DNA from: Candidatus Marinacidobacterales bacterium
GTDB taxonomy: Bacteria > Acidobacteriota > Vicinamibacteria > Marinacidobacterales > SMYC01
Direction of reading: 5' to 3'
Assembly (NCBI GenBank): GCA_965224085.1
Contig: CBDCYI010000004.1
Location: forward strand, 1,312,001-1,376,000
Length of the DNA stretch: 64,000 bases
The position numbers and the translations under genes were made by a program. Below, piece after piece: positions 1,665 through 34,978 of the stretch (its first letter is position 1; every line of letters begins with the position of its first letter). The notes under the pieces are model-generated. The model was given only the letters and a program-made list of their open reading frames with translations, was not told the origin of the DNA and did not search any database.

Positions 1665-2210
1665 TTGTCGTCACTCCGGTTTCTGACGTTGCTTATCGCA
1701 CAGGCAGTTTTCTACTACATGGCGGCCGCCAGCGTCGTGAGCGCCCTGCTGGCTGTCACCCGCAAGAACCCGGTCCACAGCATGCTCTGGGTGCTGGCGC
1801 TCTTCCTCCACATGGCGGGCATGTTCCTTCTCTTGGACGCTGAGTTCCTGGCGGCCGTGCAGGTCATCGTCTACGCCGGAGCCATCCTGATCTTCTATCT
1901 CTTCGTGGTGATGCTGCTCGACCTGCCAGATGAGGAGGCGCGGCCGCGCTTCGGACAGCACTGGCCGTTCGCCGCTTTTGTAGGGCTCTCCTTCGCAGCA
2001 TGGGCATGGCTCGCCCGTTCGGACATGGACCTCTTTGAGGTCGGCATCGCCGCCGCGGCCGTGGATGGCCCGCCGCCGGGGAGCCTCGAGGACCTCGGCA
2101 TGGAGCTCTTCGGTCCGTTCGCGCTGCCCTTCGAGATGGCCTCGCTGGTGCTCCTGGCGGCCATCGTCGGCGCTATCGTCCTCGCCCGTAGGAGGGGGGC
2201 AAGGGCATGA
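1665..2210 (+). CDS. nuoJ: NADH-quinone oxidoreductase subunit J (start uncertain, 1665-1719)
   Basis: KNPVHS, AEFLAAVQVIVYAGAILIFYLFVVMLL, LPFEMASLVLLAAIVGAIVL. Confidence 0.92.
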   Translation: MSSLRFLTLLIAQAVFYYMAAASVVSALLAVTRKNPVHSMLWVLALFLHMAGMFLLLDAEFLAAVQVIVYAGAILIFYLFVVMLLDLPDEEARPRFGQHWPFAAFVGLSFAAWAWLARSDMDLFEVGIAAAAVDGPPPGSLEDLGMELFGPFALPFEMASLVLLAAIVGAIVLARRRGARA

Positions 2211-2512
2211 TCGTTCCGTTGGGAACGATTCTCGGATTAAGCGCTGTCCTCTTCGGGATCGGTGTGTTCGGCTTCCTGGCCCGGCGCAACATCATCCTGA
2301 TGCTCGTCTCGGCCGAGATCATGCTCAACGCGGTCAACCTCAGCCTCGTCGGCTTTAGCAGGCATCTCGAAGACCCCCGAGGTCAAGTTCTGGCCCTCTT
2401 CGTCATCGCCGTGGCCGCCGCGGAGGCGGCGGTCGGTCTCGGGCTCGTGATCGCCTTGTACCGGAACAAGCCCGGGGTCAGAGTCGGCGACCTGACCGAG
2501 CTCAGATGGTGA
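2207..2512 (+). CDS. nuoK: NADH-quinone oxidoreductase subunit K
   Basis: RRNII, EIMLNAVN, AVAAAEAAVGL; 101 aa; ATGA overlap with nuoJ. Confidence 0.95.
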   Translation: MIVPLGTILGLSAVLFGIGVFGFLARRNIILMLVSAEIMLNAVNLSLVGFSRHLEDPRGQVLALFVIAVAAAEAAVGLGLVIALYRNKPGVRVGDLTELRW

Positions 2513-2521
2513 TGGCTCGAG

Positions 2522-3997
2522 ATGGGTGAGTCTGTGATACCGCTGCTCGCGGTGCTGGCGCCCGCCGTCGGCGCCCTCTTCATCGCCTTCACGGGTGAGC
2601 GTCGCACCAACTTGAGAGAGCTCTGGTCGTTCGCCGCGGGAATCGCGATGCTCGCTCTCGTTGCCAGCATGGTGCCGGAGGTTCTTTTGGGCGGCGGGCC
2701 CGGGATCGTGCTCTTCCGTCTCCTCCCCGGTATCGAGCTCGCGTTTCGCGTGGATGCCTTCGGCCTTCTTTTCGCCATCGGAGCGTCGGTCTGTTGGATT
2801 CTCACCTCGGCCTACTCGATCGGCTACATGCGTACTCTCGAGGAGCACGCGCAGACCCGCTACTTTGCTTGTTTCGCTCTAGCCCTCGCAGCCACTGTCG
2901 GTGTCGCCCTCTCCGCCAACCTCTTCACGCTGTTTCTGTTCTACGAAGGCTTGACGCTGGTCACCTACCCGCTCGTGGGTCATCACGAAGACGCCGAGGC
3001 CAGGGCCGGCGCTCGCAAGTACGTCATTTACCTGCTGGGTGCCGCCAAGGTGTTCCTGCTGGCGGCCATCATCCTGACCTACAACCTCGCTGGGACCCTG
3101 GAGTTTCGCGCCGGCGGCATCCTGCCCGCGGACAAGCTCGCCGAGCACCCCACGCTTTCTCTCGTGATCTTCGCTCTCTTTCTTTTTGGATTCGCAAAAA
3201 ACGCGCTCATGCCGCTGCACAGCTGGCTGCCGGCGGCGATGGTGGCGCCCACTCCGGTGAGCGCGCTCTTGCATGCGGTGGCCGTGGTCAAGACGGGGGT
3301 CTTCTGTACCGTTCGGGTCTTTCTCTTCGTCTTCGGTCCCGACGCCATGCGCGAGATCGGTGCCGATCAAGTCGCCCTGGTGGCCGCCTCGGTGACCATC
3401 CTCGTCGCCTCGCTGCTGGCGCTCAGTCAGGACAATCTGAAAGCGAGGCTGGCCTTCTCCACGGTGAGCCAGCTCTCCTACATCGTCCTCGGAGCAACGC
3501 TCTTGAACGCCAGTGGTGTCATGGGCGGCGTCGCGCATATCACCAACCATGCGGTATCCAAAATCACTCTCTTCTTCTGCGCCGGCTCGATCTACGTCTC
3601 TACCCGCAAGACCGAGATTAGCCAGCTCTCCGGCCTGGCCACGCGCATGCCGTGGACTGTGGCGGCGTTCTCGCTGGCCTCACTGAGCATCGTAGGGATT
3701 CCGCTCACCAGCGGCTTCGTCTCCAAATGGTACCTCGTCCTCGGCGCGGTGGAGCTCGAAAGCCTCGTCGTACTGGGCGTGCTTCTTGGGAGCTCGCTCC
3801 TCAGCGCGGCCTACCTGGGTCCGATCGTCTTCAAGGCCTATTTCGAGCCGGAGCCCCCGAAGAAAAACGACGGCGACGAAATCCGCGAGGTTCCCTGGAT
3901 GGTGGTGCCCCTTTTGATCACTGCCGCCTTTAGCCTGCTCCTGGGCCTCTTTCCCGGACCGGTGCTCGAGTTGGCCGGAAGAGCGATGCTGCCATGA
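2522..3997 (+). CDS. Antiporter-like subunit, MrpD/NuoM-type (extra pumping subunit)
   Basis: Proton_antipo_M features: FLFYE, KNALMPLHSWLPAAMVAPTPVSALLHAV, LKARLAFSTVSQ, GFVSKW. No NuoL-type C-terminal helix. Confidence 0.88.
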   Translation: MGESVIPLLAVLAPAVGALFIAFTGERRTNLRELWSFAAGIAMLALVASMVPEVLLGGGPGIVLFRLLPGIELAFRVDAFGLLFAIGASVCWILTSAYSIGYMRTLEEHAQTRYFACFALALAATVGVALSANLFTLFLFYEGLTLVTYPLVGHHEDAEARAGARKYVIYLLGAAKVFLLAAIILTYNLAGTLEFRAGGILPADKLAEHPTLSLVIFALFLFGFAKNALMPLHSWLPAAMVAPTPVSALLHAVAVVKTGVFCTVRVFLFVFGPDAMREIGADQVALVAASVTILVASLLALSQDNLKARLAFSTVSQLSYIVLGATLLNASGVMGGVAHITNHAVSKITLFFCAGSIYVSTRKTEISQLSGLATRMPWTVAAFSLASLSIVGIPLTSGFVSKWYLVLGAVELESLVVLGVLLGSSLLSAAYLGPIVFKAYFEPEPPKKNDGDEIREVPWMVVPLLITAAFSLLLGLFPGPVLELAGRAMLP

Positions 3998-4257
3998 GCT
4001 TCCTTACGAAACAGCTGGAAGATCCGGTCCGCTTCAAGCGGGTCAAGCTCTGGTTCTACGTCGGCCTGGTCGTGGTCGTTGCGACCGAGATCGTTCTGCC
4101 GCTTGTGTTCCACGGAGGCGACCACCACTTCTCGTTCGAGAGCTGGCCTGCCTGGGGCTCTCTCTATGGGTTGATCTCTTGCGTAGCGATCATCGTGGTG
4201 TCCAAGCTCATCGGAAAAGTGTGGCTGACGCGCCCCGAGGACTACTATGACGATTGA
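3994..4257 (+). CDS. Small 2-TM membrane protein coupled between two antiporter-like subunits
   Basis: 87 aa, two hydrophobic segments, C-terminal RPEDYYDD; overlaps both neighbours. Confidence 0.75.
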   Translation: MSFLTKQLEDPVRFKRVKLWFYVGLVVVVATEIVLPLVFHGGDHHFSFESWPAWGSLYGLISCVAIIVVSKLIGKVWLTRPEDYYDD

Positions 4258-6019
4258 GTGGATCCACCCGGGGCTCATCCTCATTCTGGGCGCCTTTGTG
4301 TTGCCGTTGCTCAGCGGCCGGATCAAGCGCGTCGCCATGGTCGTCCTGCCGGCCGCGGCGGTGGTCGATTGCCTTTTTTTAACGACTCCCGGGACCCATG
4401 GCGAAGTCAGCTTCCTCGGCCAGGAAATGGTGTTCGGCCGGGTGGACAGCCTGAGCCTGATCTTCTCCTACGTGTTTTCGATCATGGCCTTGCTCGGGAT
4501 GATCTACGCGCTCCATGTCAAAGAAGATTCTCAGCACGTAGCTTCCTTGGTTTATGCAGGAAGTGCCCTCGGCGTGACGTTTGCCGGCGACTTCCTCTCT
4601 CTCTACATCTTCTGGGAGCTTTTGGCGATCGCTTCGGCGCTCTTGGTTTTGCTGCGCCGCGAACGAAGTGCGCTTCTAGCCGGGTTCCGCTACCTCTTGG
4701 TTCACGTGTTCGGCGGGCTCCTCCTATTGGCGGGAATTGTGCTCCATTGGGCTCAGACCGGCTCGATCGCCTTCGGGGACATGGGAGACTTCTCGGGCAG
4801 CCTCTCTTGGGGCTTGATCCTCGCGGCCTTTCTCCTCAACGCCGCGGTTCCGCCGCTCGGGGCGTGGCTTCCCGACGCCTATCCCGAGGCCACGGTCACC
4901 GGCGCCATCTTCATGACCGCGTTCACGACCAAGTCGGCGGTCTACGTTTTGATTCGCGGCTTCGCGGGCACGGAGCTCTTGGTGTGGCTGGGCGCCATCA
5001 TGGCGATCTACGGCGTGGTGTACGCGGTGCTAGAGAACGACGCTCGCAGACTGCTGGCCTACCACATCATAAGCCAAGTCGGTTACATGGTCTGCGGCGT
5101 AGGCATCGGGACGGCGCTGGCCCTAAACGGTGCCACCGCCCACGCCTTCGCGCACATCCTCTACAAGGCGCTGCTGTTCATGGGCGCCGGCGCCGTTTTG
5201 CAGATGACCGGGTTGCGAAAGCTGAGCGACATGGGTGGGCTCTACAAGACCATGCCGGTCACACTCGGGCTCTACATGATCGGAGGCTTTGCCATCTCGG
5301 CAGTGCCACTCTTCAGCGGCTTCGTGAGCAAGTCGATGGTGGTCTCCGCCGCCGGCGAGGAACACTTGACCGTGATCTTTCTCATGCTCACGCTAGCCTC
5401 CGCGGGAACCTTCCTGCACACCGGCCTCAAGCTTCCCTACTACATGTTCTTCGGCAAGGACTCGGGGCTCAGAGCCAAGGAGCCGCCCGTGAACATGCTC
5501 GTGGCCATGGGACTGGCCGCGGCCGCCTGCATCGTGATCGGAGTTTTTCCTCGACGCGTCCTCTACCCATCCCTTCCGAACGCCGCGGACTACGTTCCGT
5601 ACACACTGCCGCACGTCACGAGCACACTCGGGATGTTGGCCTTCACAGCGCTCGGTTTCTTCCTGCTGCTCAAGCAGCTCGATCCCGAGCGCACGGTAAG
5701 CCTCGACACCGACTGGTTCTACCGCCGTGGTGTGACGCGTCTCATGAACCTGATCCTGGGTCCCGTGGCACGTCTCGAGTACGGTTACATCGGTGAGTAC
5801 TATGAGCTCGTGATCCGGCGGCCCGTTTTGGGCGCAGCGAGTCTGTTCCAAAAATTCGACAGCCGGGTGGTCGATGCGGCGCTCGTGGGTGTGGGGCGCT
5901 CGACGCGGAGCTTGAGCCAGCACCTCAAGACCGTCGAAAGCGGCCATGTCCAACACTACGGACTCATCATGGCCGCCGGAATCCTGGCTCTAGTGGCCTT
6001 GTTGATGCTCGCCCTATGA
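4247..6019 (+). CDS. Antiporter-like subunit in the NuoL position (MrpD-type core with NuoL-like C-terminal amphipathic helix and terminal TM)
   Basis: FWE, WLPDAYPEA, RRLLAYHIISQVG, GFVSKS; C-terminus FDSRVVD...SGHVQHY plus a TM segment, as in NuoL. Confidence 0.88.
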   Translation: MTIEWIHPGLILILGAFVLPLLSGRIKRVAMVVLPAAAVVDCLFLTTPGTHGEVSFLGQEMVFGRVDSLSLIFSYVFSIMALLGMIYALHVKEDSQHVASLVYAGSALGVTFAGDFLSLYIFWELLAIASALLVLLRRERSALLAGFRYLLVHVFGGLLLLAGIVLHWAQTGSIAFGDMGDFSGSLSWGLILAAFLLNAAVPPLGAWLPDAYPEATVTGAIFMTAFTTKSAVYVLIRGFAGTELLVWLGAIMAIYGVVYAVLENDARRLLAYHIISQVGYMVCGVGIGTALALNGATAHAFAHILYKALLFMGAGAVLQMTGLRKLSDMGGLYKTMPVTLGLYMIGGFAISAVPLFSGFVSKSMVVSAAGEEHLTVIFLMLTLASAGTFLHTGLKLPYYMFFGKDSGLRAKEPPVNMLVAMGLAAAACIVIGVFPRRVLYPSLPNAADYVPYTLPHVTSTLGMLAFTALGFFLLLKQLDPERTVSLDTDWFYRRGVTRLMNLILGPVARLEYGYIGEYYELVIRRPVLGAASLFQKFDSRVVDAALVGVGRSTRSLSQHLKTVESGHVQHYGLIMAAGILALVALLMLAL

Positions 6020-7479
6020 CGGCCTACCCCGTACTCACCGTCGCGACTTTCCTCCCAGTGGTGGGTGCTGCTCTTGTGCTTCTCGGCGGCGAGCAGCGCG
6101 CGCGCTTCATTGCGCTGGCCACTGCCTTTATGACTCTGGCAGCCTCGGCCCCCCTCTACCTGAATTTCGACAAGGCCTCGAGCGGTCTACAGTTCGCAGA
6201 GACGCGAGAGTGGATCCCGTCCTGGGGCATCACTTACGGCATGGGCGTGGATGGCATCAGCGTGCTGTTCATCTTCCTCGCTTCAGTCTTGATCGTCTTG
6301 TGCATCGGAGCCTCTTGGATTGCGGTTGGCACCAGAGCGCGGGAGTTCTACGCTGCCTTGCTGGTCGCGGAAACGGCGATGATCGGGCTCTTTGCCGCAT
6401 CCAACCTGTTTCTCTTTTTCATTTTCTGGGAGCTCATCGTCGTTCCCCTCTTTCTGCTGATCGGCATCTGGGGAGGGGAAAAGCGCGTCTACGCCTCCGT
6501 CAAGTTCCTGATCTTCACGCTAACGGGTAGCGTCTTGATGCTGGTGGGCATGATGGCGCTCTACAACCTTTGCGGCACGATGGACTTCAAGGCCCTCACT
6601 CTCGCCCGAGCGAGCCTTGAGCCGCATCATCAGGCCTGGCTCTTTGCAGCTTTTCTAGCTGCCTTCGCCGTCAAAGTGCCCATGTTCCCGGTGCACACTT
6701 GGCTACCGGACGCCCACACCGAAGCGCCCACGGCAGGCAGTGTCATCCTGGCCGGAATCCTCCTCAAGATGGGCGCCTACGGTTTCTTGCGGGTCTCCAT
6801 TCCGATTCTTCCAGACGGCGTCGAGTTCTTTGTAAAACCCATGCTCGCCATCTCCGCAGTAGCCATCGTCTACGGCGCCTACGTGACGTTGGTTCAGAAG
6901 GACATCAAGCGCCTCGTCGCCTATTCCAGCGTCAGCCACATGGGCTTCGTGACTCTCGGCATCTTCACTCTCGACGAGCGAGGAGTCGAGGGCGGGATCC
7001 TCCAGATGATCAATCACGGAATCGTCACCTCGGCGCTCTTTCTGTGCGTTGGCATGATCTACGAACGCACCCACACGAGAGAGATCAAGGACTATGGTGG
7101 CGTTTTTAAGGTCGCGCCGGTCTACGCGGCATTCTTCGCGCTGTTTTGTTTGGCTGCTGCGGGATTCCCGGGTCTGAATTCTTTCGTGGGGGAGTTCCTG
7201 ATCGTCGGTAGCGCCTTCGAGACCCAGGCTTGGCTCGGCGCGATGGCGATCTGGGGCGTAGCCCTGGGGACCACCTACCTGGTCTGGCTCTACTACCGCG
7301 TGGTGATGGGTGAGACCAACGCGGGGTTGCACGGGCTCGAGCTCGAGCTCAACCCACGCGAGGTGGCAACGCTTTTGCCACTGGCCATCCTCACTGTGAC
7401 TCTCGGTCTCTATCCTGAGCTCGTCCTCTCCTATCTTCGTGCTCCCGTGGCCGAGCTCCTAGCCGGAGTCGTGCCATGA
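6016..7479 (+). CDS. nuoM: NADH-quinone oxidoreductase subunit M
   Basis: GVDGIS, FIFWE, AVKVPMFPVHTWLPDAHTEAPTAGSVILAG, LVAYSSVSHMG, FVGEF. Confidence 0.95.
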   Translation: MTAYPVLTVATFLPVVGAALVLLGGEQRARFIALATAFMTLAASAPLYLNFDKASSGLQFAETREWIPSWGITYGMGVDGISVLFIFLASVLIVLCIGASWIAVGTRAREFYAALLVAETAMIGLFAASNLFLFFIFWELIVVPLFLLIGIWGGEKRVYASVKFLIFTLTGSVLMLVGMMALYNLCGTMDFKALTLARASLEPHHQAWLFAAFLAAFAVKVPMFPVHTWLPDAHTEAPTAGSVILAGILLKMGAYGFLRVSIPILPDGVEFFVKPMLAISAVAIVYGAYVTLVQKDIKRLVAYSSVSHMGFVTLGIFTLDERGVEGGILQMINHGIVTSALFLCVGMIYERTHTREIKDYGGVFKVAPVYAAFFALFCLAAAGFPGLNSFVGEFLIVGSAFETQAWLGAMAIWGVALGTTYLVWLYYRVVMGETNAGLHGLELELNPREVATLLPLAILTVTLGLYPELVLSYLRAPVAELLAGVVP

Positions 7480-8915
7480 GAAGTGTCACCGTCTCTGACC
7501 TGGCCCTCGTCATACCGGAGCTGATCCTGATCGGCACGGCGCTAGCGCTCATTCTTTTCGCGCCTCGCATCCGGCAAGGAACCACCGCCGCCGTCGCGAC
7601 GGTTCTAGCAGCGCTCACCGCCGCTCTGGCCTCGGCCGGGGTCCTGCGTTCGGACACCGTAACAGGCTTCGGAGGAATGATCACCCAGGATGGCTATTCC
7701 GTATTCTTCAAGATTCTGATCGCCTCCGCCTTGGCTCTAGCCGCGCTTCTCTCAGTGCGAAGCACCAAGGAAGACGAAGACGAGGACGAGGACGAGGTTC
7801 CGCGCGGCGAGTATCACGCCCTGCTGCTCCTCGCTTCGACAGGAATGATGCTCGCGGTCTCTACCGTGGATCTGCTGACCCTCTACCTGGGCCTGGAGTT
7901 GATGACCATCTGCTCCTACATCCTCGTGGGGATCCACGTGCAGAGACCGACATCGAACGAGGCGGCGATCAAGTACTTCCTCGTGGCTTCCTTCTCCTCG
8001 GCCCTGCTCCTCTTCGGCATCAGCCTGACCTACGGTTTCGCGGGCAGTACCGACTTCGCCGCCGTGGCGTCGGCCTTTGCTGAGCACGGCACGGCGACAA
8101 GCCCGCTTCTCTTGGCGGCCATCTTGCTGGTGCTGGGTGGCCTGGCCTTCAAGATCGCGGCAGCCCCGTTTCACTCCTGGGCGCCGGACGCGTACCAGGG
8201 TGCGAGCGCACCAGTCGCCGCCTTCTTGGCAGCCGGATCCAAGGCGGCGGGCCTTGCAGCTCTGGGACGCGTGACACTGGTCGCGTACGGCTCGGCGGCC
8301 GAGGTCCTGTCGATGCTTCTGGCCGGTCTCGCCGCTCTCTCCATTGTGGTTGGCAGCATCACCTTGTTGGCGCAGACCGACATGAAACGCCTCTTGGCCT
8401 ACTCCTCCATCGCGCATGCAGGCTACGCCATCCTGGGCCTCATCGCCGGCACTCCCGAAGGGGCGTCGGCGACGATGACTTACGCGTTCTTTTATGTGTT
8501 CATGACTCTAGGCGCCTTTGGCATTGTGATCGCCCTTGGCGAGCGGGGAGCTACCCTCGATGGCTATCGGGGCCTGGCCGCACAGCGGCCCGTCGCGGCC
8601 TCGCTCATGCTGCTCTTCCTATTGTCATTGACGGGGTTCCCTCCAACCGCCGGTTTCGTCGCCAAGTTCGTCGTCATCCTGAGCGCCGTGCGCGCCGGGC
8701 ACGTAGCACTCGCGGTGCTGGCCGTGGCCTGCAGTGTGATATCGGCCTTCGTCTACATGCGCGTGGCCGTGTACATGTTCATGAGGGAGTCCGAGGAGCC
8801 CGCACCGTCACGCTGGCCGGTGGCGGTGTCCGCGGCACTCACGGTGGCCGCGCTGGTCACTCTGATCGGCGGCATCTCACCCGCCACTCTCATGTCCTGG
8901 GCGGTGTCGCCATGA
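7476..8915 (+). CDS. nuoN: NADH-quinone oxidoreductase subunit N
   Basis: GLEL, EAAIKYF, FKIAAAPFHSWAPDAYQGA, KRLLAYSSIAHAGY, GFPPTAGFVAK. Confidence 0.95.
   Translation: MRSVTVSDLALVIPELILIGTALALILFAPRIRQGTTAAVATVLAALTAALASAGVLRSDTVTGFGGMITQDGYSVFFKILIASALALAALLSVRSTKEDEDEDEDEVPRGEYHALLLLASTGMMLAVSTVDLLTLYLGLELMTICSYILVGIHVQRPTSNEAAIKYFLVASFSSALLLFGISLTYGFAGSTDFAAVASAFAEHGTATSPLLLAAILLVLGGLAFKIAAAPFHSWAPDAYQGASAPVAAFLAAGSKAAGLAALGRVTLVAYGSAAEVLSMLLAGLAALSIVVGSITLLAQTDMKRLLAYSSIAHAGYAILGLIAGTPEGASATMTYAFFYVFMTLGAFGIVIALGERGATLDGYRGLAAQRPVAASLMLLFLLSLTGFPPTAGFVAKFVVILSAVRAGHVALAVLAVACSVISAFVYMRVAVYMFMRESEEPAPSRWPVAVSAALTVAALVTLIGGISPATLMSWAVSP
7770..7796 (+). repeat. In-frame (GARGAC)n hexamer microsatellite encoding EDEDEDEDE in NuoN
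   Basis: gaagacgaagacgaggacgaggacgag. Confidence 0.7.
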
Positions 8916-8955
8916 ATATCGGCCGTCCTGTATATTGGCATCGAGGCAATCACCA

Positions 8956-9309: not shown

Positions 9310-9324
9310 AGACTGGAAGTGAAT

Positions 9325-10424: not shown

Positions 10425-10426
10425 AC

Positions 10427-11785: not shown

Positions 11786-13575
11786 AACTGTCTGATCTCG
11801 AAGGCAAAGCTGCGGAGATTCTCGAGCGCTACGAGTACCCCAAGGCGGCCATGCTGCCTCTCTTGTGGCTCGTTCAAGAGCATCAAGGCTACGTCGCACC
11901 GGACGCAGAGGACTGGGTCGCAGGTATCTTGGGAGTGTCCCGCTCCAAGGTGCGCGAGGCCGTCTCCTTCTACAACATGTTCCACACCAAGCCGGTGGGC
12001 CGGCGCGAGCTCCGCGTCTGCACGAGCTTGCCGTGCATGCTGCGCGGCTCCGGCAATCTGCTCAATCGAATCGAGAAAGCGTTGAACATCCGCCCCGGCG
12101 AGACCACCCCTGGGGGCGAGGTGACCCTCACCGAAGTCGAGTGCTTGTGCGCCTGCGAAATGTCGCCCATGGCTCAACTCGACGAACGCTTCGTCGGTCC
12201 TCTCGAAGGCGAAACGGTCGGCATGATCGTCCACGACGCGCTGACAGAGCCCGCTAGCCCGGAGTCGACCCCGGAGCCCACGCCCTACATCTCTACGGAT
12301 GGGCCGGTGCTTTCTCTGCACTTCGAGAATCCCGATGGGACATGGATGGATAGCTACGTGGCCGATGGCGGGTACGTCGCGGCCAAGAAGGCACTCACCT
12401 CGTTGACGCCGAAGCAGGTGACCGACGAGGTTCTTGGTGCCAATCTACGCGGACTGGGCGGCGCAGGGTTCCCCACCGGTAGGAAGTGGTCGTTCATCCC
12501 CGCGGACACGGACAAGCCAAAATACCTCGTTGTCAACGCCGACGAGGGCGAGCCCGGTACCTTCAAGGACCGCTACCTCATGGAGCGCGACCCACACGCG
12601 CTGCTCGAAGGCATGCTTATCGCCGCTTACGCCATCGACTGTCACAAAGCCTATGTCTATATCCGCGGTGAGTACTTCCGATCGGCACATCGCCTACAGC
12701 GCGCCATCGACGAGGCCCACGAAAGCGGCTGGCTTGGCAAGGACATAAAGGGGACGGGTTTCGATCTGGATGTCGTCATCCACCGCGGCGCGGGGGCGTA
12801 CATTTGCGGCGAAGAGACGGCGCTTCTGACCTCGCTCGAAGGGGGGAAGGGCTTTCCACGGCTCAAGCCCCCCTTCCCTGCGATCTCGGGTCTCTTCTCC
12901 TGCCCTACGATCGTTAATAATGTTGAGACCCTGTGCTGTGTGCCGTTCATTCTGCGCCAAGGAGTCGATCGATTCAAGGAGATCGGCACCGAGACTCAGG
13001 GCGGCACGCGTCTGTTCTGCGTCAGCGGGCACGTGGTCACGCCCGGCGTCTACGAGGCGCCGGTCTCTATCACACTACGAGAGCTGATCGAGAGGGCCGG
13101 TGGTATCCGCGACGGCAACCAGCTCAAGGCCGTTATCCCCGGAGGCATCTCGGCCAAGATCCTGACCGCCGATGAGATCGACGTTGCCATGGACTTCGAT
13201 TCCCTCCGCGCCGCAGGCACCATGGCCGGGTCCGGAGGTGTCATCGTCATGGACGATACCACGTGCATGGTGGAGGCGCTGGCGTCGGCCGCCAAGTTCT
13301 TCGCGGACGAGTCGTGCGGACAGTGCTCGCCGTGCCGTGAAGGAACCGGCTGGGTACTTCGTATCGTGCACCGCATCCTCGAAGCGCGGGGGAAGGTTCA
13401 GGACCTGGATGACCTGCTCGCCATCGCCGGCGACATGGAAGGAAAGACCATCTGCGTTTTCGCGGATGCGGCCGCATGGCCGGTGCAATCCTACATCGTG
13501 AAATTCCGGAGCGAGTTCGAGGAGTACATCCGCACGGAGCGTTCCATCCGAAGCACCCAGGCCGCCCATGCCTAG
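11782..13575 (+). CDS. nuoEF: Fused NADH-quinone oxidoreductase subunits E and F
   Basis: N-terminal NuoE ligands CTSLPC/CLCAC, then a Pro/Thr/Glu linker, then NuoF motifs GGAGFPTG, NADEGEPG, YICGEET, CGQCSPC...C. TTG start overlaps the nuoD stop. Confidence 0.93.
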   Translation: MKLSDLEGKAAEILERYEYPKAAMLPLLWLVQEHQGYVAPDAEDWVAGILGVSRSKVREAVSFYNMFHTKPVGRRELRVCTSLPCMLRGSGNLLNRIEKALNIRPGETTPGGEVTLTEVECLCACEMSPMAQLDERFVGPLEGETVGMIVHDALTEPASPESTPEPTPYISTDGPVLSLHFENPDGTWMDSYVADGGYVAAKKALTSLTPKQVTDEVLGANLRGLGGAGFPTGRKWSFIPADTDKPKYLVVNADEGEPGTFKDRYLMERDPHALLEGMLIAAYAIDCHKAYVYIRGEYFRSAHRLQRAIDEAHESGWLGKDIKGTGFDLDVVIHRGAGAYICGEETALLTSLEGGKGFPRLKPPFPAISGLFSCPTIVNNVETLCCVPFILRQGVDRFKEIGTETQGGTRLFCVSGHVVTPGVYEAPVSITLRELIERAGGIRDGNQLKAVIPGGISAKILTADEIDVAMDFDSLRAAGTMAGSGGVIVMDDTTCMVEALASAAKFFADESCGQCSPCREGTGWVLRIVHRILEARGKVQDLDDLLAIAGDMEGKTICVFADAAAWPVQSYIVKFRSEFEEYIRTERSIRSTQAAHA

Positions 13576-15208
13576 CCTGAGCCGCTTGACCATTGACGGC
13601 CGCGAGATCACCGTTCCCGAAGGAACCACGGTCATCCAGGCGGCGGAGCAGCTCGGGATCTTCATTCCTCGCTACTGCTACCACCCCGGCCTATCGATCG
13701 CCGGCAACTGCCGCATCTGTCTCGTCGAAGTCGAGAAATCCCCCAAGCTGGAGATCGCCTGCAACCTGGCGGTTCGGGAGGGGATGGTCGTGCACACCCA
13801 GAGCGACGAGGCCGAGGACGGGCGCCGGTCCGTGCTGGAGTTTCTCCTCGCCAACCACCCGCTCGACTGCCCGGTCTGCGACCAGTCCGGTGAATGCGAC
13901 CTGCAGAACTTCTACATGAACTTCGGGCTCTACGACCCGAGGTTCCGGGAGCAGAAGGTCAAGAAGAAAAAGGCCGTGGAGCTAGGCCCCCATGTGATGC
14001 TTGACCAGGAGCGCTGTATCCTGTGCTCCCGCTGTGTGCGCTTCACAGACGAGATTACCGAGACCGGTGAGTTCGGCATCTTCAACCGCGGCGACCGGGC
14101 GGAGCTTGGGATCTATCCTGGTGAGGTGCTCGACAATCCCTACTCGGCGAACGTGGTGGACATCTGTCCGGTCGGCGCCCTAACCGAGAAGGACTTCCGC
14201 TTCGCGGCCAGGGTCTGGTACCTGTCGAGCGCCCCAACCGTCTGCAACGGCTGCAGTCAAGGCTGCAACGTCGATCTACACTTCGTGCTCGACAGGCCTC
14301 ATCTGAACGACGGGGCTAGGCTCGTGCGCATCAAGCCCCGCTACAACCCGGACGTCAACCAATGGTGGTTGTGCGACGAGGGGCGCTACGGCTTCGGCTG
14401 GCTGGATCAGGCACGGATCACGAAAGTGCGGCAGGGGCCGGCGGCGGACGGAGCGAACGGAGATGCAACCTGGGAGCAGGCCCTCACCGCAATCTCGATG
14501 ACCCTGGCGGAGTTGGACAAGGGCCGGATCGCCGTGATGGCCTCGGCTCAGCTCACCAACGAAGAGCTCTTCCTGATCCGAGAGATTCTCCAGAATTCCC
14601 TGGGAGCCCGAGTCAGCGCCTCCGTTTCAGACAAGCCCGGCTCGGCCGACGACTTTCTCATCAAGGGCGACAAGAATCCCAACACTCGGGGAGCGACGCT
14701 GTTGGGTTTGGCCGGCCCCGAGGCACCGGATGCCGAACAGATCATGGACGAGGCCGCCTCTGGGAACCTCGGTGCCCTATGGGTCTTCGGGCACGATCTG
14801 GTGGAGCTCTTTGGCGAGGAAAGAGTTCGGGAGCTCGCAAAGAAAGTGGGTCTCTTCGTCTTGTCGGGCACCAACGACAACGCGACCGTGCCGTTCGCCC
14901 ATTGGGTACTGCCGAGCGCCGCCTACATGGAGAAGGATGGCACCTTCGTCAACTGTCACGGCCGCGTCCAGCGCATCGGCCGGGCCTTCGCACCTCTCGA
15001 GGACGCGCGTGAGGATTGGCGCGTTCTCCTGGATTTAGCCGGGCGGTTGGGTCAGTCGCTGAACTGGCGCGGACCGCAAGAGATCTTCGACGGCTTGGCC
15101 AAGGCGTCTAGCCTCTTCGGGGGATTGAGCTACGACGCCATCGGCGCGCAAGGGGCTGACATTACGACAGCCGCTCCCGCTACTGAGCTTGACGCGGTCG
15201 AGCCATGA
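13568..15208 (+). CDS. nuoG: NADH-quinone oxidoreductase subunit G (short form, 546 aa)
   Basis: GNCRIC, HPLDCPVCDQSGEC, CILCSRC, DICPVGAL, CNGCSQGC...C. Confidence 0.93.
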   Translation: MPSLSRLTIDGREITVPEGTTVIQAAEQLGIFIPRYCYHPGLSIAGNCRICLVEVEKSPKLEIACNLAVREGMVVHTQSDEAEDGRRSVLEFLLANHPLDCPVCDQSGECDLQNFYMNFGLYDPRFREQKVKKKKAVELGPHVMLDQERCILCSRCVRFTDEITETGEFGIFNRGDRAELGIYPGEVLDNPYSANVVDICPVGALTEKDFRFAARVWYLSSAPTVCNGCSQGCNVDLHFVLDRPHLNDGARLVRIKPRYNPDVNQWWLCDEGRYGFGWLDQARITKVRQGPAADGANGDATWEQALTAISMTLAELDKGRIAVMASAQLTNEELFLIREILQNSLGARVSASVSDKPGSADDFLIKGDKNPNTRGATLLGLAGPEAPDAEQIMDEAASGNLGALWVFGHDLVELFGEERVRELAKKVGLFVLSGTNDNATVPFAHWVLPSAAYMEKDGTFVNCHGRVQRIGRAFAPLEDAREDWRVLLDLAGRLGQSLNWRGPQEIFDGLAKASSLFGGLSYDAIGAQGADITTAAPATELDAVEP

Positions 15209-16299
15209 TCGAAATCCTGGCCATAAAGGTCGCTCTGGCGGGAATGGTCTTTCTCGCGGTCCTGAATCTGGCCGGGTTTCATACCTGGGTGGAGCGCAAG
15301 CAGTCAGCCCTCATCCAGGACCGCATCGGGGCCAACCGCGCTAGCATCTTTGGCTTTCGGGCGCTGGGACTCTTCCATGGCCTCGCCGATCCGATCAAGA
15401 TGTTCACCAAGGAGGACATCGTCCCGACCGGAGCGGACAAGGTCCTCCATACTCTGGCCCCGTTCTTCTCGGTCTTTTTCGCCTTGGTGACCTTTGCCGC
15501 GATTCCCTTCGGTGACCAGCTCATCCTTTTCGACCGCGTCATCGACCTGCAGGTGGCTAAAATCAACGCGGCGCTGCTCTACGTCTTCGCCATGCTCTCC
15601 CTCGGAGTCTACGGCGTGATCCTCGCCGGCTTCGCTTCGCGCAACAACTACGCGATCATGGGCGGGCTGAGAGCAACCGCGCAGATGATCTCGTATGAGA
15701 TTGCTCTGGGCATCTCCATCGTCGGCGTGATCATGGTCTACGGGACCATGGACCTGGCCGAGCTGGTGCGGGCCCAGGGATACATGATCGGCGGGTGGAT
15801 CCCGATGTGGGGAATCGTCACCCAGCCTGTCGCTTTCATCGTCTTTTTGACCGCGGCCCTCGCTGAGACCAAAAGAGTCCCCTTCGACCTACCGGAAGCA
15901 GAGTCGGAGATCATCGGGTACTTCGTCGAGTACAGCGGCATGAAGTTCGGAATGTTCTTCCTCACCGATTTCCTCGAGACCATCGTGGTGGCGTGCCTCG
16001 CAACGACCCTCTTCTTCGGCGGATGGCAAGTGCCCTTCCTCTTGCCGGACGGCTTCCACTTCCCCTGGGGAGGAGAGCTCCAGCTCGCCAACTGGTTCTA
16101 CGCGCTCCTCGGAGTGACGAGCTTCTCGATCAAGGTCTTGATCTTCTGCTTCGTGTTCATGCAGATACGATGGACCCTGCCGCGCTTCCGCTACGATCAG
16201 CTCATGAGCCTCGGCTGGAAAGGGCTCTTCCCGATCGCAGTGGCCAACACCGCGCTCACCGCAGTCGTGCTAGTTATCTTCTTCGGGGAGAGCACCTGA
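15205..16299 (+). CDS. nuoH: NADH-quinone oxidoreductase subunit H
   Basis: ERK, DRIG, ADPIKMFTKE, AQMISYE, RVPFDLPEAESE, PRFRYDQL. Confidence 0.96.
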   Translation: MIEILAIKVALAGMVFLAVLNLAGFHTWVERKQSALIQDRIGANRASIFGFRALGLFHGLADPIKMFTKEDIVPTGADKVLHTLAPFFSVFFALVTFAAIPFGDQLILFDRVIDLQVAKINAALLYVFAMLSLGVYGVILAGFASRNNYAIMGGLRATAQMISYEIALGISIVGVIMVYGTMDLAELVRAQGYMIGGWIPMWGIVTQPVAFIVFLTAALAETKRVPFDLPEAESEIIGYFVEYSGMKFGMFFLTDFLETIVVACLATTLFFGGWQVPFLLPDGFHFPWGGELQLANWFYALLGVTSFSIKVLIFCFVFMQIRWTLPRFRYDQLMSLGWKGLFPIAVANTALTAVVLVIFFGEST

Positions 16300-16928
16300 T
16301 GGCCGTCAAAGTCGTCCGCAGGCCTGAGCTGACCTTCTGGGAGAAGACCTATCTCCCCCAGATCCTCTCCGGCCTCAAGATCACCTTTTCGCACTTCTTC
16401 CGTAACCTCTTCCTCCATATCGCCCACCTCTTTGGCCGTCTCCTGCATCTTCGCGCCAGCGCCACCATCCAGTATCCCGAAGAGCTAAGGCCACTCATGT
16501 CGAGGTACCGAAGCCGCCACCGACTCACCGTACGCGAGGACAACACCCCGCGCTGTGTGGGCTGCATGCTCTGTGAGACGGTGTGTCCGGCCAAATGCAT
16601 CACCATCGTGCCGGACGAGCACCCAGACCCAAACGTCGAGAAGTACCCGATCCGCTTCGACATCGACCTGGGCGTCTGCGTCTATTGCGGATACTGCGTC
16701 GAGGTCTGCCCTGAGGACGCGATCCGCATGGACACGGGAATCCTCGACCTAGCCGCCTACTCGAGGGAAGCCATGCGGCTCGATATCCATGAGCTGATGG
16801 ACCCATCGCTGCGCAAACCGATCACCGACTGCAGCCTGGACTTCCCGCACCAGTGCGCGCCGACAGGGGGAAAGATGAAGGGCAGCTGGAGCGTCGACAG
16901 GGCGCAAACCGAGTCTGTAGAACGATGA
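16299..16928 (+). CDS. nuoI: NADH-quinone oxidoreductase subunit I
   Basis: TIQYPEE; two ferredoxin motifs, CVGCMLCETVCP and CVYCGYCVEVCP. Confidence 0.95.
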   Translation: MAVKVVRRPELTFWEKTYLPQILSGLKITFSHFFRNLFLHIAHLFGRLLHLRASATIQYPEELRPLMSRYRSRHRLTVREDNTPRCVGCMLCETVCPAKCITIVPDEHPDPNVEKYPIRFDIDLGVCVYCGYCVEVCPEDAIRMDTGILDLAAYSREAMRLDIHELMDPSLRKPITDCSLDFPHQCAPTGGKMKGSWSVDRAQTESVER

Positions 16929-17929
16929 GCCGCCTACATCTGGCCAAGGAGATCATGGTGACGAAGCTCGTCACCGTAGGTCCGGAAGACGACGTGCTAT
17001 GGGGCATTGGTCGACTTCTTGACCGTCGCATCAGCGGCGCCCCAGTGGTCGGTAGCGGCCGGCGCTATCTCGGCATGCTTTCGGATCGCAGTTGCATGAA
17101 AGTCCTCTACGAGACGGCTCGCGAGGCTCGGGTGGAGACGATCCATCTTCCCCAAGCGCGCGCGTTCATGTCGAAGAAGCTCTTCACTCTGAGCCCGGAA
17201 ACCGACGCCATCGAAGCGATCTCGAGGCTGCTCAAGCAACGTTTCTCGGGGGCTCCCGTCGTCAACGAGAAGGGGAATTTTTTGGGGGTCTTCTCCGAAC
17301 GCTACATCATGCGATTGCTGATCAACTCGGCCTACGAGCAGGTACCGTCCACCCGAGTGGACGCGTTCATGAACACGGACCGCGGCCGACTGATTGAAGG
17401 GACAATGGACCTTCTCGAGGTCGCTCGGATGTTCCACGACACGTATTACCGGCGGCTACCCGTCATGAAGGACGGAAAATTGATCGGCCAGATCAGCCCG
17501 TTCGACGTTCTCAGTGCCGAGCATCACCTGGCCCGCTCCGTCAAGGGTCGCTGGCGGAGCCTGCTGGACCATCGTCTGGTACGGACCCTCGCCGAGCTAT
17601 GGCGTGGCGGCGGAAAGCCACCTTCGATGCAGATCTCCCAGTTCATGGACACCTCCGCCGAGACGATCGAGGAGGACTTGGATCTCCTGGCGATCGCCAG
17701 AATCTTCCTCGACTCCAACCGTCGTCGCCTCCCGGTTCTGCGCGAAGGCGAGCTGGTCGGCCAGATCAGCCGCCGCGATCTACTGCACGAGGTGCTCGAC
17801 CTGCTCTCGGAACAACCGCACCGCGAGCGACCCGGCCTATTCCTGAGCGCTGTCACGAACCCTGCTGAGAACCCGATCTTGCGGGACAGTCAACATCCGA
17901 GCGCCGGATCGTCGCAGCACCGCTCCTGA
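16925..17929 (+). CDS. Four-CBS-motif protein, translationally coupled to nuoI
   Basis: ISGAPVV, FSGAPVV, YRRLPV..GQIS, RRRLPV..GQIS; ATGA overlap with nuoI. Confidence 0.88.
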   Translation: MSRLHLAKEIMVTKLVTVGPEDDVLWGIGRLLDRRISGAPVVGSGRRYLGMLSDRSCMKVLYETAREARVETIHLPQARAFMSKKLFTLSPETDAIEAISRLLKQRFSGAPVVNEKGNFLGVFSERYIMRLLINSAYEQVPSTRVDAFMNTDRGRLIEGTMDLLEVARMFHDTYYRRLPVMKDGKLIGQISPFDVLSAEHHLARSVKGRWRSLLDHRLVRTLAELWRGGGKPPSMQISQFMDTSAETIEEDLDLLAIARIFLDSNRRRLPVLREGELVGQISRRDLLHEVLDLLSEQPHRERPGLFLSAVTNPAENPILRDSQHPSAGSSQHRS

Positions 17930-34742: not shown

Positions 34743-34978
34743 CTAAGCCGCCCAGCTAGCGGCAACTATGCATAAATTGGAGTGAGAAGACGGTCGGACA
34801 GGAAGTCGGAGTTGGACGTCAGGGAGTTGCGAATCGACAGAGATATGGCGGGGAAGATAGAAGAAGGGCCTACCCGGTGCGGTAACCACCACGGTAGCGT
34901 TATGAGTTCGCGACGAGACACACGAGTCCGTTTCAACGACCGGTCGGCGTTGTGAGAGGCGGAGCGAAAGCATCGTGA

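What the first reader, a model, noticed from the sequence alone, without database searches (positions are those of the whole stretch)
1665..17929. Complex I with four antiporter-like subunits: an Mrp-type D-x-D module in place of nuoL
Seen: between nuoK and nuoM are a 491-aa MrpD-like subunit, an 87-aa 2-TM protein and a 590-aa subunit, followed by normal NuoM and NuoN. The module is tightly coupled: a 9-bp gap after nuoK, then overlapping starts and stops. Established: canonical complex I has three antiporter subunits (L, M, N), and variants with an extra one (2M type) are proposed to pump more ions per electron. Inference: the D-small-D trio resembles the arrangement in multi-D Mrp Na+/H+ antiporter operons. 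This may be a Nuo/Mrp hybrid with a complete NADH input module and either altered stoichiometry or Na+ coupling.
Basis: partly seen in the sequence, partly recalled or inferred. Interest (0 to 1): 0.85.

Follow-up and report, generated by a model that had tools for sequence, protein, structure and literature searches.

The report
Green-type complex I with Mrp-derived pump cassette

Summary
One tightly coupled + strand operon (1665-17929) reads nuoJ-K-D1(491 aa)-x(87 aa)-D2(590 aa)-M-N-A-B-C-D-EF(fused)-G-H-I plus a CBS-domain gene.

The architecture is not new. Citing papers describe a rhizobial "green complex I" in which two MrpD-like subunits replace NuoL. An Ensifer plasmid has the same J-K-D1-x-D2-M-N-A-G order; nuoH, nuoI and the CBS gene are inverted there.

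Of 80 fetched loci encoding D2 relatives, 46 lie in nuo operons across many phyla. 25 have an extra antiporter-like gene (D') upstream; four examined are stand-alone mrpEFG-MbhD/E-B-C-D'-D1-x-D2 operons. One sits in a bd-like oxidase cluster.

D1 and D2 form their own clades, separate from NuoL/MrpA, NuoM and NuoN. The D1 model superposes best on MrpD. The D2 model superposes best on MrpA and NuoL and has a 74-residue lateral helix.

Two details I did not find described:
- x accompanies the cassette in every context.
- D2 has Asn where the essential TM7 lysine sits (29 of 29 aligned rows).

Extra pumping stoichiometry is possible but untested. Nothing supports Na+ coupling. Verdict: a new member of a known kind, of modest interest.

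The parts
1665..2210 (+). nuoJ. The start is uncertain: TTG at 1665, or a later ATG at 1719.
   Evidence: Pfam PF00499, 136 bits. The stop overlaps the nuoK start by 4 nt.
2207..2512 (+). nuoK
   Evidence: Pfam PF00420, 100.6 bits. NCBIfam NuoK NF004320, 110.5 bits against a cutoff of 57.
2522..3997 (+). D1: an MrpD-like antiporter subunit of 491 aa with 14 transmembrane helices and no lateral helix. It keeps the full set of channel residues: E142, K226, H251, K257, H339, H343, K347, K402.
   Evidence: PF00361, 194 bits. NF006236, 645 bits against a cutoff of 663. Member of the D1 clade, SH-aLRT 100. Residues. AF2 model pLDDT 89.9. Best fold matches are MrpD 7qru_D (TM 0.89) and 6z16_D.
3994..4257 (+). 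x: an 87-aa protein with two transmembrane helices and no known family. It has an invariant membrane lysine (K71) and a conserved C-terminal EDYYD tail.
   Evidence: No Pfam hit and no PDB sequence hit at E<=10. 729 homologues. Atlas neighbours are only hypothetical or 2TM proteins. Alignment A4. Hydropathy. Detected beside D2 in 73 of the 77 loci with sequence upstream of D2.
4247..6019 (+). D2: an antiporter subunit of 590 aa with a NuoL/MrpA(N)-type C-terminal extension. The extension comprises TM15 (454-473), a lateral helix (489-562) and TM16 (567-589). Asn198 sits where the TM7 lysine normally is.
   Evidence: NF009310 (PRK12668), 731.5 bits against a cutoff of 564. Member of the D2 clade, SH-aLRT 100. 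AF2 model pLDDT 88.3. Best fold matches are MrpA 7qru_A and 6z16_A, NdhF and NuoL. Residues 512-590 align to the lateral helix plus TM16 of NuoL chains 8qby_L and 4he8_L. N198.
6016..7479 (+). nuoM, with the canonical E139, K220, K251 and E393
   Evidence: TIGR01972, 567.6 bits. In the NuoM clade with E. coli NuoM. Residues.
7476..8915 (+). nuoN
   Evidence: TIGR01770, 387.8 bits. In the NuoN clade with E. coli NuoN.
8935..9309 (+). nuoA
   Evidence: PF00507, 117.9 bits.
9319..9843 (+). nuoB
   Evidence: PF01058. TIGR01957, 202 bits against a cutoff of 142.7.
9840..10424 (+). nuoC
   Evidence: PF00329, 153.7 bits. ATG start at 9840 overlaps the nuoB stop.
10427..11785 (+). nuoD
   Evidence: PF00346, 330 bits. 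ATG start at 10427.
11782..13575 (+). nuoE-nuoF fusion, the NADH/FMN module
   Evidence: PF01257, PF01512 and PF10589 all lie in one ORF. TIGR01959 NuoF, 601.6 bits against a cutoff of 558.65. TTG start at 11782 overlaps the nuoD stop. The same fusion is seen in L002-L004.
13568..15208 (+). nuoG, a short form of 546 aa
   Evidence: Fer2_4, NADH-G_4Fe-4S_3, Fer4_Nqo3 and a partial Molybdopterin domain. TIGR01973, 448.7 bits against a cutoff of 470.
15205..16299 (+). nuoH
   Evidence: PF00146, 349.6 bits.
16299..16928 (+). nuoI
   Evidence: TIGR01971, 109.7 bits against a cutoff of 113. Fer4 domains. ATG start at 16299.
16925..17929 (+). A protein with four CBS domains, translationally coupled to nuoI. 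Possibly a nucleotide-sensing accessory or regulator.
   Evidence: PF00571 with 4 stretches, 146.9 bits. ATG at 16925 overlaps the nuoI stop by 4 nt. A CBS gene also lies beside nuoI in Ensifer and inside or beside the operon in L004, L008 and L061.

Best explanation

Its peripheral arm (NuoB, C, D, fused EF, G, I) and proximal membrane part (NuoH, A, J, K, N, M) are ordinary. The distal subunit NuoL is replaced by a three-gene cassette of Mrp origin:
- D1 is an MrpD-like subunit with 14 transmembrane helices and every canonical channel residue.
- x is an 87-aa protein with two transmembrane helices.
- D2 has an antiporter core plus TM15, a roughly 110-Å lateral helix and TM16. It is the structural counterpart of NuoL or the N-terminal part of MrpA.

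Most likely order along the arm (inference): H-A/J/K-N-M-D1-D2. D2 sits at the tip, and its lateral helix runs back over D1 towards NuoM and NuoN as a clamp, as in Mrp (MrpD-MrpA) and complex I (M-L). Protein x stays with D1/D2 as a small structural subunit.

[quoted passage not shown] That would give up to 5 H+ per 2 e- forward, or an easier reverse reaction. I put about 0.4 on the fourth subunit really adding a pumped proton.

What is shown: gene content, tight coupling, conservation of the cassette, its clades, the folds of D1 and D2, and the residue patterns. What is inferred: assembly, subunit order, stoichiometry and the role of x.
For: - Gene content and tight coupling of 16 genes.
- The Ensifer plasmid has the same J-K-D1-x-D2-M-N-A-G order, with D1 55%, D2 59%, M 50% and N 41% identical to the window proteins; nuoH, nuoI and the CBS gene are inverted there.
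- The architecture is named green complex I in the literature (passages).
- The cassette lies between nuoK and nuoM/N in 46 of 80 fetched loci from many phyla.
- No NuoL-clade gene is in the operon. D1 and D2 are each a clade with SH-aLRT 100, and Nuo-context and Mrp-context rows are mixed in both.
- AF2 models: D1 has pLDDT 89.9 and fits MrpD best (TM 0.89, rmsd 2.7 Å). D2 has pLDDT 88.3 and fits MrpA, NdhF and NuoL best. D2 has helix 489-562 followed by TM16.
- The D2 C-terminus aligns to the lateral helix plus TM16 of solved NuoL chains.
- For the order: NuoM carries Glu on TM12 (E393), as E. coli NuoM does. D1 offers the Glu/Lys pair (E142/K226) that NuoL offers to NuoM. D2 has no TM7 lysine (N198), so it needs a neighbour with a TM12 lysine, which D1 has (K402).
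- In the Mrp structure the coupling point is TM7 Lys and TM5 Glu of MrpA with TM12 Lys of MrpD (passage).
- Deleting nuoL in E. coli prevents assembly of complex I (passage of PMC3274701), so some distal subunit is needed.
- Natural fusion proteins exist: D1-D2 (P0275, 1090 aa) and D1-linker-D2 (P0389, 1304 aa; its linker looks x-like by eye only).
Against: - There is no direct evidence of assembly, of subunit order or of stoichiometry.
- The opposite order (N-M-D2-D1, with D2 in the exact NuoL position) fits the helix length at least as well. The predicted D2 lateral helix is 74 residues. That is about the E. coli length, inferred from K551 being mid-helix and TM16 starting at Y590, although the TM15-TM16 spacing is 16 residues longer in D2.
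- The Nitrospiria five-pump relative (L041) has 26 more residues in this tail.
- D2 lacks the TM7 lysine whose mutation abolishes function in NuoL, M and N (passage of PMC3046159). It may therefore not pump.
- From my own knowledge: NADH to menaquinone yields too little energy for 5 H+ at a normal proton-motive force.
- The pLDDT of the D2 lateral helix is only 60-79.
Confidence: 0.7

Rival explanations
1. This is a three-pump enzyme in disguise. D1 does the job of the NuoL channel. D2 is a degenerate pump kept mainly for its lateral helix and TM16 clamp, so the stoichiometry stays at 4 H+/2e-.
For: - D2 has Asn at the TM7 lysine position in 29 of 29 aligned D2-clade rows.
- A motif scan of all 80 loci gave Asn in 75, Ser in 1 and no regex match in 4.
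- Mutating that lysine in NuoL, M or N causes loss of function (passage).
- From my own knowledge, the energetics argue against 5 H+ with a low-potential quinone.
Against: - The other channel residues of D2 are strongly conserved: E124 29/29, K229 29/29, H299 28/29, H303 28/29, K307 29/29, K362 28/29. That is not expected for a purely structural subunit.
- The same D2 serves in stand-alone Mrp operons, where ion transport is its only conceivable role.
Confidence: 0.2
2. D1-x-D2 forms a separate Mrp-like transporter that merely shares the operon. The Nuo subunits then make an L-less complex.
For: - The cassette is 47-63% identical to copies in Mrp-context loci.
- In two loci (L066, L055) a whole Mrp operon sits inside a nuo operon.
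Against: - No MrpE, F, G, B or MbhD/E genes were found in the window operon or among the 42 other large ORFs scanned.
- No other NuoL candidate is present.
- The cassette occupies the nuoL slot in 46 of 80 loci.
- Start and stop codons overlap with nuoM.
- The E. coli nuoL deletion does not assemble complex I.
Confidence: 0.04
3. The Mrp-derived cassette makes the enzyme pump or exchange Na+.
For: Only the Mrp ancestry and the database name 'Na(+)/H(+) antiporter subunit D'.
Against: - In the solved Mrp complex the Na+ path runs at the MrpC/F/A(C-terminal)/D interface, and MrpA(N) and MrpD are proton channels (passage). Those Na+-path subunits are absent here.
- D1 and D2 keep the Lys/His/Glu proton-channel pattern.
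Confidence: 0.05

Closest known systems
Green complex I of rhizobia (Degli Esposti & Martinez-Romero 2016). I know it only through citing passages in PMC9040806 and PMC7415380, and through an Ensifer canadensis plasmid record.
   Same: - Two MrpD-like genes and a small ORF lie in the nuoL slot.
- The order J-K-D1-x-D2-M-N-A-B-C-D-E-F-G is the same, with a CBS gene beside nuoI.
- Identities to the window proteins are D1 55%, x 35%, D2 59%, M 50%, N 41%.
- The sequences fall in the same D1 and D2 clades.
   Different: - Here nuoE and nuoF are fused and nuoG is short (546 aa against 872 aa).
- nuoH, nuoI and the CBS gene follow on the same strand, whereas in Ensifer they are inverted.
- The CBS protein has four domains (334 aa) against 146 aa in Ensifer.
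- The host is an acidobacterium, and the locus is apparently chromosomal.
Group 3-like Mrp antiporter operons of the form mrpE-F-G-MbhD/E-B-C-D'-D1-x-D2 (seen in L064, L028, L033 and L020)
   Same: - They carry the same D1-x-D2 cassette: D1 49-53% and D2 55-63% identical to the window proteins in these four loci.
- D2 has Asn at the TM7 lysine position there too.
   Different: They carry MrpE/F/G/B/C, MbhD/E and a third antiporter-like subunit D', and they have no redox module. The window has none of the Mrp-specific small subunits.
2M complex I of Nitrospira, and Complex_I_3 of Ca. Manganitrophaceae (Chadwick 2018 and Yu 2022; passages only)
   Same: More than three antiporter-like subunits in a complex I operon. 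Complex_I_3 uses the same D1/D2 pair.
   Different: - The 2M type keeps NuoL, with a 26-aa insert in the lateral helix, and duplicates NuoM.
- The window has one NuoM and no NuoL.
- The D2 tail in the window is the common length (104 aa after the D-x-D-W motif), against 129 in the Nitrospiria locus L041.
MbsH/MbsH' of the archaeal MBS complex, and MrpD/MrpA of solved Mrp complexes
   Same: A pair made of one plain antiporter-like subunit and one that carries TM15, the lateral helix and TM16 holding the pair together (passage of PMC7684303). These are the best sequence and fold matches of D1 and D2.
   Different: Sequence identity is only 21-26%. No counterpart of x exists in those structures. 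Their helix-bearing subunits have a lysine on TM7 (K217 in MbsH'; K248 in MrpA).

Membership tests
Green complex I | Two MrpD-like subunit genes replace nuoL between nuoK and nuoM | tested here: met
   Searches give the gene content. In the tree neither protein groups with E. coli NuoL.
Green complex I | Rearranged gene order (J-K...M-N ahead of A-G), as in the rhizobial operons | tested here: met
   The order J-K-D1-x-D2-M-N-A-G matches Ensifer plasmid pT173d; nuoH, nuoI and the CBS gene are inverted there. 14 of the 16 Nuo-context loci with NuoE/F share this permutation.
Green complex I | Orthology of the subunits with the rhizobial enzyme | tested here: met
   Identities of 41-59% for the large subunits. 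Rhizobial rows (L009) lie in the same D1, D2, M and N clades.
Green complex I | Physiological role (up-regulated in symbiosis, low-potential quinone) | not testable with these tools
   Known only from the review passage.
Canonical 14-subunit complex I (Nuo14) | All of NuoA-N present, including a NuoL orthologue | tested here: not met
   13 of the 14 subunits are present. No member of the NuoL/MrpA clade is present.
Canonical 14-subunit complex I (Nuo14) | A distal subunit with TM15, lateral helix and TM16 | tested here: met
   D2 model and alignments.
2M complex I | A second nuoM, and a NuoL with a roughly 26-aa insert in the lateral helix | tested here: not met
   There is one NuoM-clade gene. 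The D2 tail is 104 aa, like the rhizobial copies, against 129 aa in L041.
Mrp (CPA3) antiporter | MrpE, F, G and B subunits together with MrpA/D and MrpC | tested here: not met
   No MNHE, MrpF_PhaF, PhaG_MnhG or MnhB domain in the operon ORFs or in the other 42 ORFs of 110 aa or more that I scanned. Shorter ORFs outside the operon were not scanned.
Mrp (CPA3) antiporter | An MrpD-like plus MrpA(N)-like antiporter pair | tested here: met
   Fold matches. Both share clades with Mrp-context copies.

The most novel reading that the evidence does not exclude
D1-x-D2 may be a portable, self-contained two-channel pump cassette with an obligatory, so far undescribed third subunit (x). Evolution appears to have plugged it into at least three different machines: stand-alone Mrp antiporters, complex I in place of NuoL, and a bd-like terminal oxidase cluster.

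Inside the cassette the universally essential TM7 lysine of the terminal subunit D2 is missing. Its role may be supplied in trans, either by the TM12 lysine of D1 or by the invariant membrane lysine K71 of x. That would be a new variant of the inter-subunit coupling point of the complex I/Mrp superfamily.
Probability: 0.3. Interest if true: 0.55.

Novelty: new member of a known kind. Interest (0 to 1): 0.32.

Why it matters
As an example of complex I with four antiporter-like subunits, this is not a discovery. The type has been named since 2016 and is common on rhizobial plasmids.

It matters in a smaller way for four reasons:
- It shows the type is widespread. It occurs in 46 of the 80 loci fetched, from Acidobacteriota, Planctomycetota, Desulfobacterota, Verrucomicrobiota, Nitrospirota and Pseudomonadota.
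- NCBI's family model NF009310 names D2 'Na(+)/H(+) antiporter subunit D', and the small gene is left as 'hypothetical'. Genome-based surveys may therefore score these operons as complex I lacking NuoL.
- The cassette, with its small subunit and its missing TM7 lysine, is a natural experiment on how antiporter-like subunits are coupled.
- My searches found no structure and no stoichiometry measurement of such an enzyme, so it is a reasonable target for cryo-EM and H+/e- measurements.

Tried and rejected
- **Complex prediction of x with D2.** Not sent on. The job never ran, so binding of x was not tested.
- **Folding the natural D1-D2 fusion P0275 to see the D1/D2 arrangement.** The MAFFT alignment put all D2 rows on the D1 half (A5). 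Three other input sets tried in the sandbox also merged D1 and D2 rows into one block. I dropped this. P0389 (1304 aa) is above the size limit for folding.
- **Primary papers.** Degli Esposti & Martinez-Romero 2016 and Chadwick et al. 2018 are not held. Their content is known to me only through citing passages.
- **Looking for fused forms of x.** One doubtful 179-aa hit only.
- **Known-family search for x.** Nothing from Pfam or NCBIfam (only a 14.5-bit chance match), from PDB sequences or from the Atlas.
- **Literature search for a solved or measured four-pump complex I.** Phrase search gave 0 papers. A search on pSymA nuo gave only listings, with no biochemical study evident.
- **The idea that the D2 lateral helix carries an extra ~27-aa segment relative to NuoL.** Rejected. 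The predicted helix (74 aa) is about the E. coli length implied. Only the TM15-TM16 spacing is 16 aa longer.
- **A split NuoL.** Rejected, because both D1 and D2 have complete antiporter cores.

Full report
**What is in the window.** On the + strand, 16 genes run from 1665 to 17929 with overlaps or gaps of at most 19 nt. They are nuoJ, nuoK, a 491-aa antiporter-like gene (D1), an 87-aa gene (x), a 590-aa antiporter-like gene (D2), nuoM, nuoN, nuoA, B, C, D, a fused nuoEF, a short nuoG, nuoH, nuoI and a gene for a protein with four CBS domains (Pfam, NCBIfam, ORFs, junctions).

There is a 9-nt gap after nuoK. D1/x overlap by 4 nt, x/D2 by 11 nt, D2/nuoM by 4 nt and nuoM/nuoN by 4 nt. Protein x has two hydrophobic segments, 21-39 and 60-78.

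The closest relatives of D2 that carry a name come from Vicinamibacteria and Acidobacteriota (80-87% identity). The most similar locus, L002, is a Vicinamibacteria MAG with the same gene order.

**It is a known architecture.** A passage in Yu et al. [quoted passage not shown] It cites Degli Esposti & Martinez-Romero 2016. A review passage (PMC7415380) adds three points: about 70 Alphaproteobacteria have it, it has a 'peculiar rearrangement of gene order', and it is up-regulated in symbiosis. I could not read the two primary papers.

A tblastn search of D2 against plasmids found 393 records. 98 of them cover at least 80% of the query, led by Ensifer, Sinorhizobium and Rhizobium at 59-60% identity. 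The annotated Ensifer canadensis plasmid shows J-K-'antiporter subunit D family' (487 aa)-'hypothetical' (84 aa)-'Na(+)/H(+) antiporter subunit D' (586 aa)-M-N-A-B-C-D-E-F-G. The CBS gene, nuoI and nuoH lie inverted next to this block. The window is therefore a new, acidobacterial member of this type. It differs in three ways: NuoE and NuoF are fused, NuoG is short, and H-I-CBS lie on the same strand.

**Distribution and contexts of the cassette.** A scan of one genome per species with a D2 alignment returned 80 loci, the cap, out of 576 confirmed candidates. I labelled their ORFs by blastp against the window's proteins.
- 46 loci have the cassette in a nuo context. This counts L032, whose truncated D1 had put it in the 'both' class.
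- 25 loci have an extra antiporter-like gene (D') upstream and no nuo genes on either side. L055 was put in this class although nuoM lies about 4 kb further upstream; it is described under 'Things seen in related loci'.
- 1 locus (L066) has both kinds of neighbour.
- 8 loci are truncated or different.

Among the 46 nuo loci, 16 carry NuoE/F on the same strand. 14 of those 16 have the window's permuted order. 21 show A-B-C-D-H-I-J-K with no NADH module.

In the four D' loci I scanned with Pfam (L064, L028, L033, L020), the genes found ahead of the cassette are Mrp ones. L064 shows the full series mrpE-F-G-MbhD/E-B-C-D'-D1-x-D2. L028 and L033 show parts of the series, and L020 only mrpC. One of the 'different' loci, L031 from Manganitrophaceae, has D1, a D2 without lateral helix and x, set between cytochrome c genes and a bd-like oxidase. 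This matches the TO_2 cluster of Yu et al..

x was detected next to D2 in 73 of the 80 loci. In 3 of the 7 misses D2 lies at a contig start, so 77 loci have sequence upstream of D2. In 3 more misses a divergent x-like ORF is visible by eye. In L031, x lies downstream of D2. D1 was found just upstream in 72 of 80 loci.

**Phylogeny.** I built a quick maximum-likelihood tree of 106 antiporter-like proteins. It included the window, E. coli NuoL/M/N and 26 of the 80 loci. The other 54 loci were left out to save time. The tree has separate well-supported clades:
- NuoN (SH-aLRT 100).
- NuoM (100), which includes E. coli NuoM.
- NuoL/MrpA (98): E. coli NuoL, a canonical 649-aa NuoL from L066 and a 768-aa MrpA-like protein from L060.
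- D' (98).
- D1 (100; 28 rows).
- D2 (100; 29 rows).

Nuo-context and Mrp-context rows are mixed within the D1 and D2 clades. The deepest D2 branches come from Mrp-context loci, and the Nuo-context D2 rows lie in a nested group (SH-aLRT 89) that also holds two Mrp-context rows. This suggests, but does not prove, that the cassette moved from Mrp to Nuo. Neither D1 nor D2 is a NuoL orthologue.

**Structure of D1 and D2.** The AF2 model of D1 (38 sequences, pLDDT 89.9) has 14 transmembrane helices and ends there. Its best Foldseek matches in the PDB are MrpD chains (7qru_D, TM 0.89, rmsd 2.7 Å; 6z16_D).

The AF2 model of D2 (51 sequences, pLDDT 88.3) adds three elements after the core:
- TM15, residues 454-473.
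- One long helix, residues 489-562 (74 residues, pLDDT 60-79).
- TM16, residues 567-589.

The best matches of D2 are the helix-bearing subunits MrpA (7qru_A, TMq 0.77; 6z16_A), NdhF, NuoL and MbsH'. D2 residues 512-590 align to the lateral helix and TM16 of Paracoccus and Thermus NuoL. So D1 plus D2 is the counterpart of MrpD plus the N-terminal part of MrpA, or of MbsH plus MbsH'. In MBS the lateral helix 'holds MbsH and MbsH' together' (passage of PMC7684303).

No solved chain resembles x. No family library or Atlas cluster gives it a name.

**Channel residues.** I mapped residues in the 106-row alignment using E. coli numbering. The numbering was recalled; the columns are self-consistent, and the TM5 Glu and TM7 Lys numbers are confirmed by PMC3046159.
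- D1 has E142, K226, H251+K257, H339/H343/K347 and K402. These are invariant, or nearly so, in all 28 D1 rows.
- D2 has E124, K229, H299/H303/K307 and K362.
- At the TM7 lysine position D2 has Asn198, in 29 of 29 D2 rows.

A motif scan of all 80 loci gave Asn in 75, Ser in 1 and no regex match in 4.

Mutation of that lysine in NuoL, M or N 'resulted in loss of function' (passage). I did not find the substitution mentioned in the passages I read.

x has an invariant lysine in its second helix (K71) and a conserved C-terminal EDYYD tail (35 sequences).

**How it most likely works.** What the data show is that a complete NADH module, Q module and proximal membrane module are encoded together with N, M, D1, x and D2, and that no NuoL is present.

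The rest is inferred. The subunits probably assemble as H-A/J/K-N-M-D1-D2. I prefer this order for three reasons.
- NuoM here keeps Glu on TM12 (E393). D1 presents the same TM5 Glu/TM7 Lys pair that NuoL presents to NuoM.
- D2 lacks the lysine, so it needs a neighbour with a TM12 lysine. D1 has K402.
- The solved Mrp complex has exactly this arrangement: the TM12 lysine of MrpD couples to the TM5 Glu/TM7 Lys pair of MrpA(N), and MrpA is distal (passage of PMC7419157).

I give this order about 0.65.

The alternative order is N-M-D2-D1. It is attractive because the D2 helix has about the canonical length. In E. coli, K551 is mid-helix at the L/M boundary and TM16 starts at Y590. By hydropathy, the TM15-TM16 spacing is 96 aa in D2 against 80 aa in E. 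coli. The tail after the conserved D-x-D-W-x-Y-R motif is 100-108 aa in 40 of the 43 nuo-context D2 proteins where the motif was found. It is 129 aa in the Nitrospiria locus L041, which matches the 26-aa insert reported for five-pump enzymes.

With four channels plus the E-channel the enzyme could move 5 H+ per 2 e-. I put about 0.4 on that. There are two reasons for caution: D2 may be a crippled pump, and, from my own knowledge, NADH-to-menaquinone chemistry cannot pay for 5 H+ at a normal proton-motive force. Working at low proton-motive force or in reverse is possible. That is the idea cited from Chadwick et al..

**Rivals.**
- A three-pump enzyme in which D2 is mainly a clamp: 0.2.
- A separate Mrp-like transporter: 0.04. 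Against it: no MrpE/F/G/B, the cassette occupies the nuoL slot in 46 loci, translational coupling to nuoM, and the E. coli nuoL deletion does not assemble complex I.
- Na+ coupling: 0.05. Against it: the Na+ path of Mrp lies in subunits that are absent here.

**What stayed unchecked.**
- Binding of x to D1 or D2. The complex-prediction job was never accepted.
- The D1/D2 arrangement. The fusion protein could not be aligned properly, and the full trio exceeds the size limits.
- The primary literature and its supplements.
- The closed metagenome and viral collections.
- The rest of this organism's genome, for example whether it also has a canonical complex I.

**Verdict.** But the architecture has been named and surveyed since 2016. 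This is a new member of a known kind, of modest interest (0.32).

The points that might repay work are these:
- The unnamed small subunit x.
- The invariant loss of the TM7 lysine in D2.
- The cassette's reuse in Mrp, complex I and a bd-like oxidase cluster.
- The absence, in my searches, of any structure or stoichiometry measurement for such an enzyme.

**Things seen in related loci.** In L066 (Bacteroidota) a full Mrp operon of this type lies between nuoM and nuoN of an otherwise canonical nuo operon that keeps NuoL; L055 (Ignavibacteriales) shows D'-D1-x-D2 about 4 kb downstream of nuoM, but that gap was not scanned and no nuoN was found there. L040 has the order J-K-M-D1-x-D2-N. L017 and L069 carry a second D2 copy after the first.

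Noticed in passing
window 11782-13575 and 13568-15208: nuoE and nuoF are fused into one 597-aa ORF (TTG start at 11782), and nuoG is only 546 aa with a truncated molybdopterin-like part. The same fusion and short NuoG occur in the Vicinamibacteria and Planctomycetota loci L002-L004. In the rhizobial operons E and F are separate and G is about 800-870 aa.
   Followed up: partly
window 16925-17929: A protein with four CBS domains is translationally coupled to nuoI. A CBS-domain gene also lies beside the operon in Ensifer (L001) and in L004, L008 and L061. It may be a recurrent accessory or regulator of the NADH-type green complex I.
   Followed up: partly
window 7476-8915 (NuoN residues about 97-108): NuoN carries a run of alternating acidic residues (KEDEDEDEDEV) in a loop after its third helix. 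The composition check of the tree also flagged NuoN as unusual.
   Followed up: no
L066 124-13215; L055 40-11686: In a Bacteroidota MAG (L066) a complete Mrp operon (mrpE-F-G-MbhD-MbhE-B-C-D'-D1-x-D2) sits between nuoM and nuoN of a nuo operon that still has a canonical 649-aa NuoL. In an Ignavibacteriales MAG (L055) D'-D1-x-D2 lies about 4 kb downstream of nuoM, but that gap was not scanned and no nuoN was found. Whether this is one giant arm or two machines is unknown.
   Followed up: partly
L031 6478-17253: In a Manganitrophaceae MAG, D1, a 514-aa D2 without lateral helix and then x lie between cytochrome c genes and an 800-aa fusion of a bd-like oxidase with cytochrome c. This is a third context for the cassette and matches the TO_2 cluster of Yu et al. 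2022.
   Followed up: partly
P0275 (1090 aa) and P0389 (1304 aa): Natural single-chain fusions exist: D1-D2 (P0275) and D1-linker-D2 (P0389). The P0389 linker resembles x by eye only.
   Followed up: partly
L040 6381-13238; L017 and L069: L040 (Desulfocapsa) has the gene order J-K-M-D1-x-D2-N. L017 and L069 have a second D2-clade gene directly after D2.
   Followed up: no
L026 and L045: In two MAG contigs, x-D2 is present but no D1 was detected within 700 nt upstream, although more than 5 kb of upstream sequence is held.
   Followed up: no
L078 9511-10002: Here the x-like ORF is 163 aa. It has an x-like N-terminal part without the conserved lysine and an extra C-terminal domain.
   Followed up: no
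window 25868-27598, 34234-34743, 34979-36226, 42557-43417, 47245-47850: A cluster of mobile-element genes lies downstream of the operon: a DDE transposase, an IS200-like Y1 transposase, an IS91-like Y2 transposase, a tyrosine integrase and a DUF772 transposase fragment. A Peptidase_M3 ORF at 28756-29532 matches only the C-terminal half of its profile and may be truncated.
   Followed up: no
window 58141-59940: A bacterial homologue of angiotensin-converting enzyme (Peptidase_M2, 763 bits, full-length match).
   Followed up: no
window 18714-19628: A GntR-family regulator gene lies about 800 nt downstream of the operon on the same strand.
   Followed up: no
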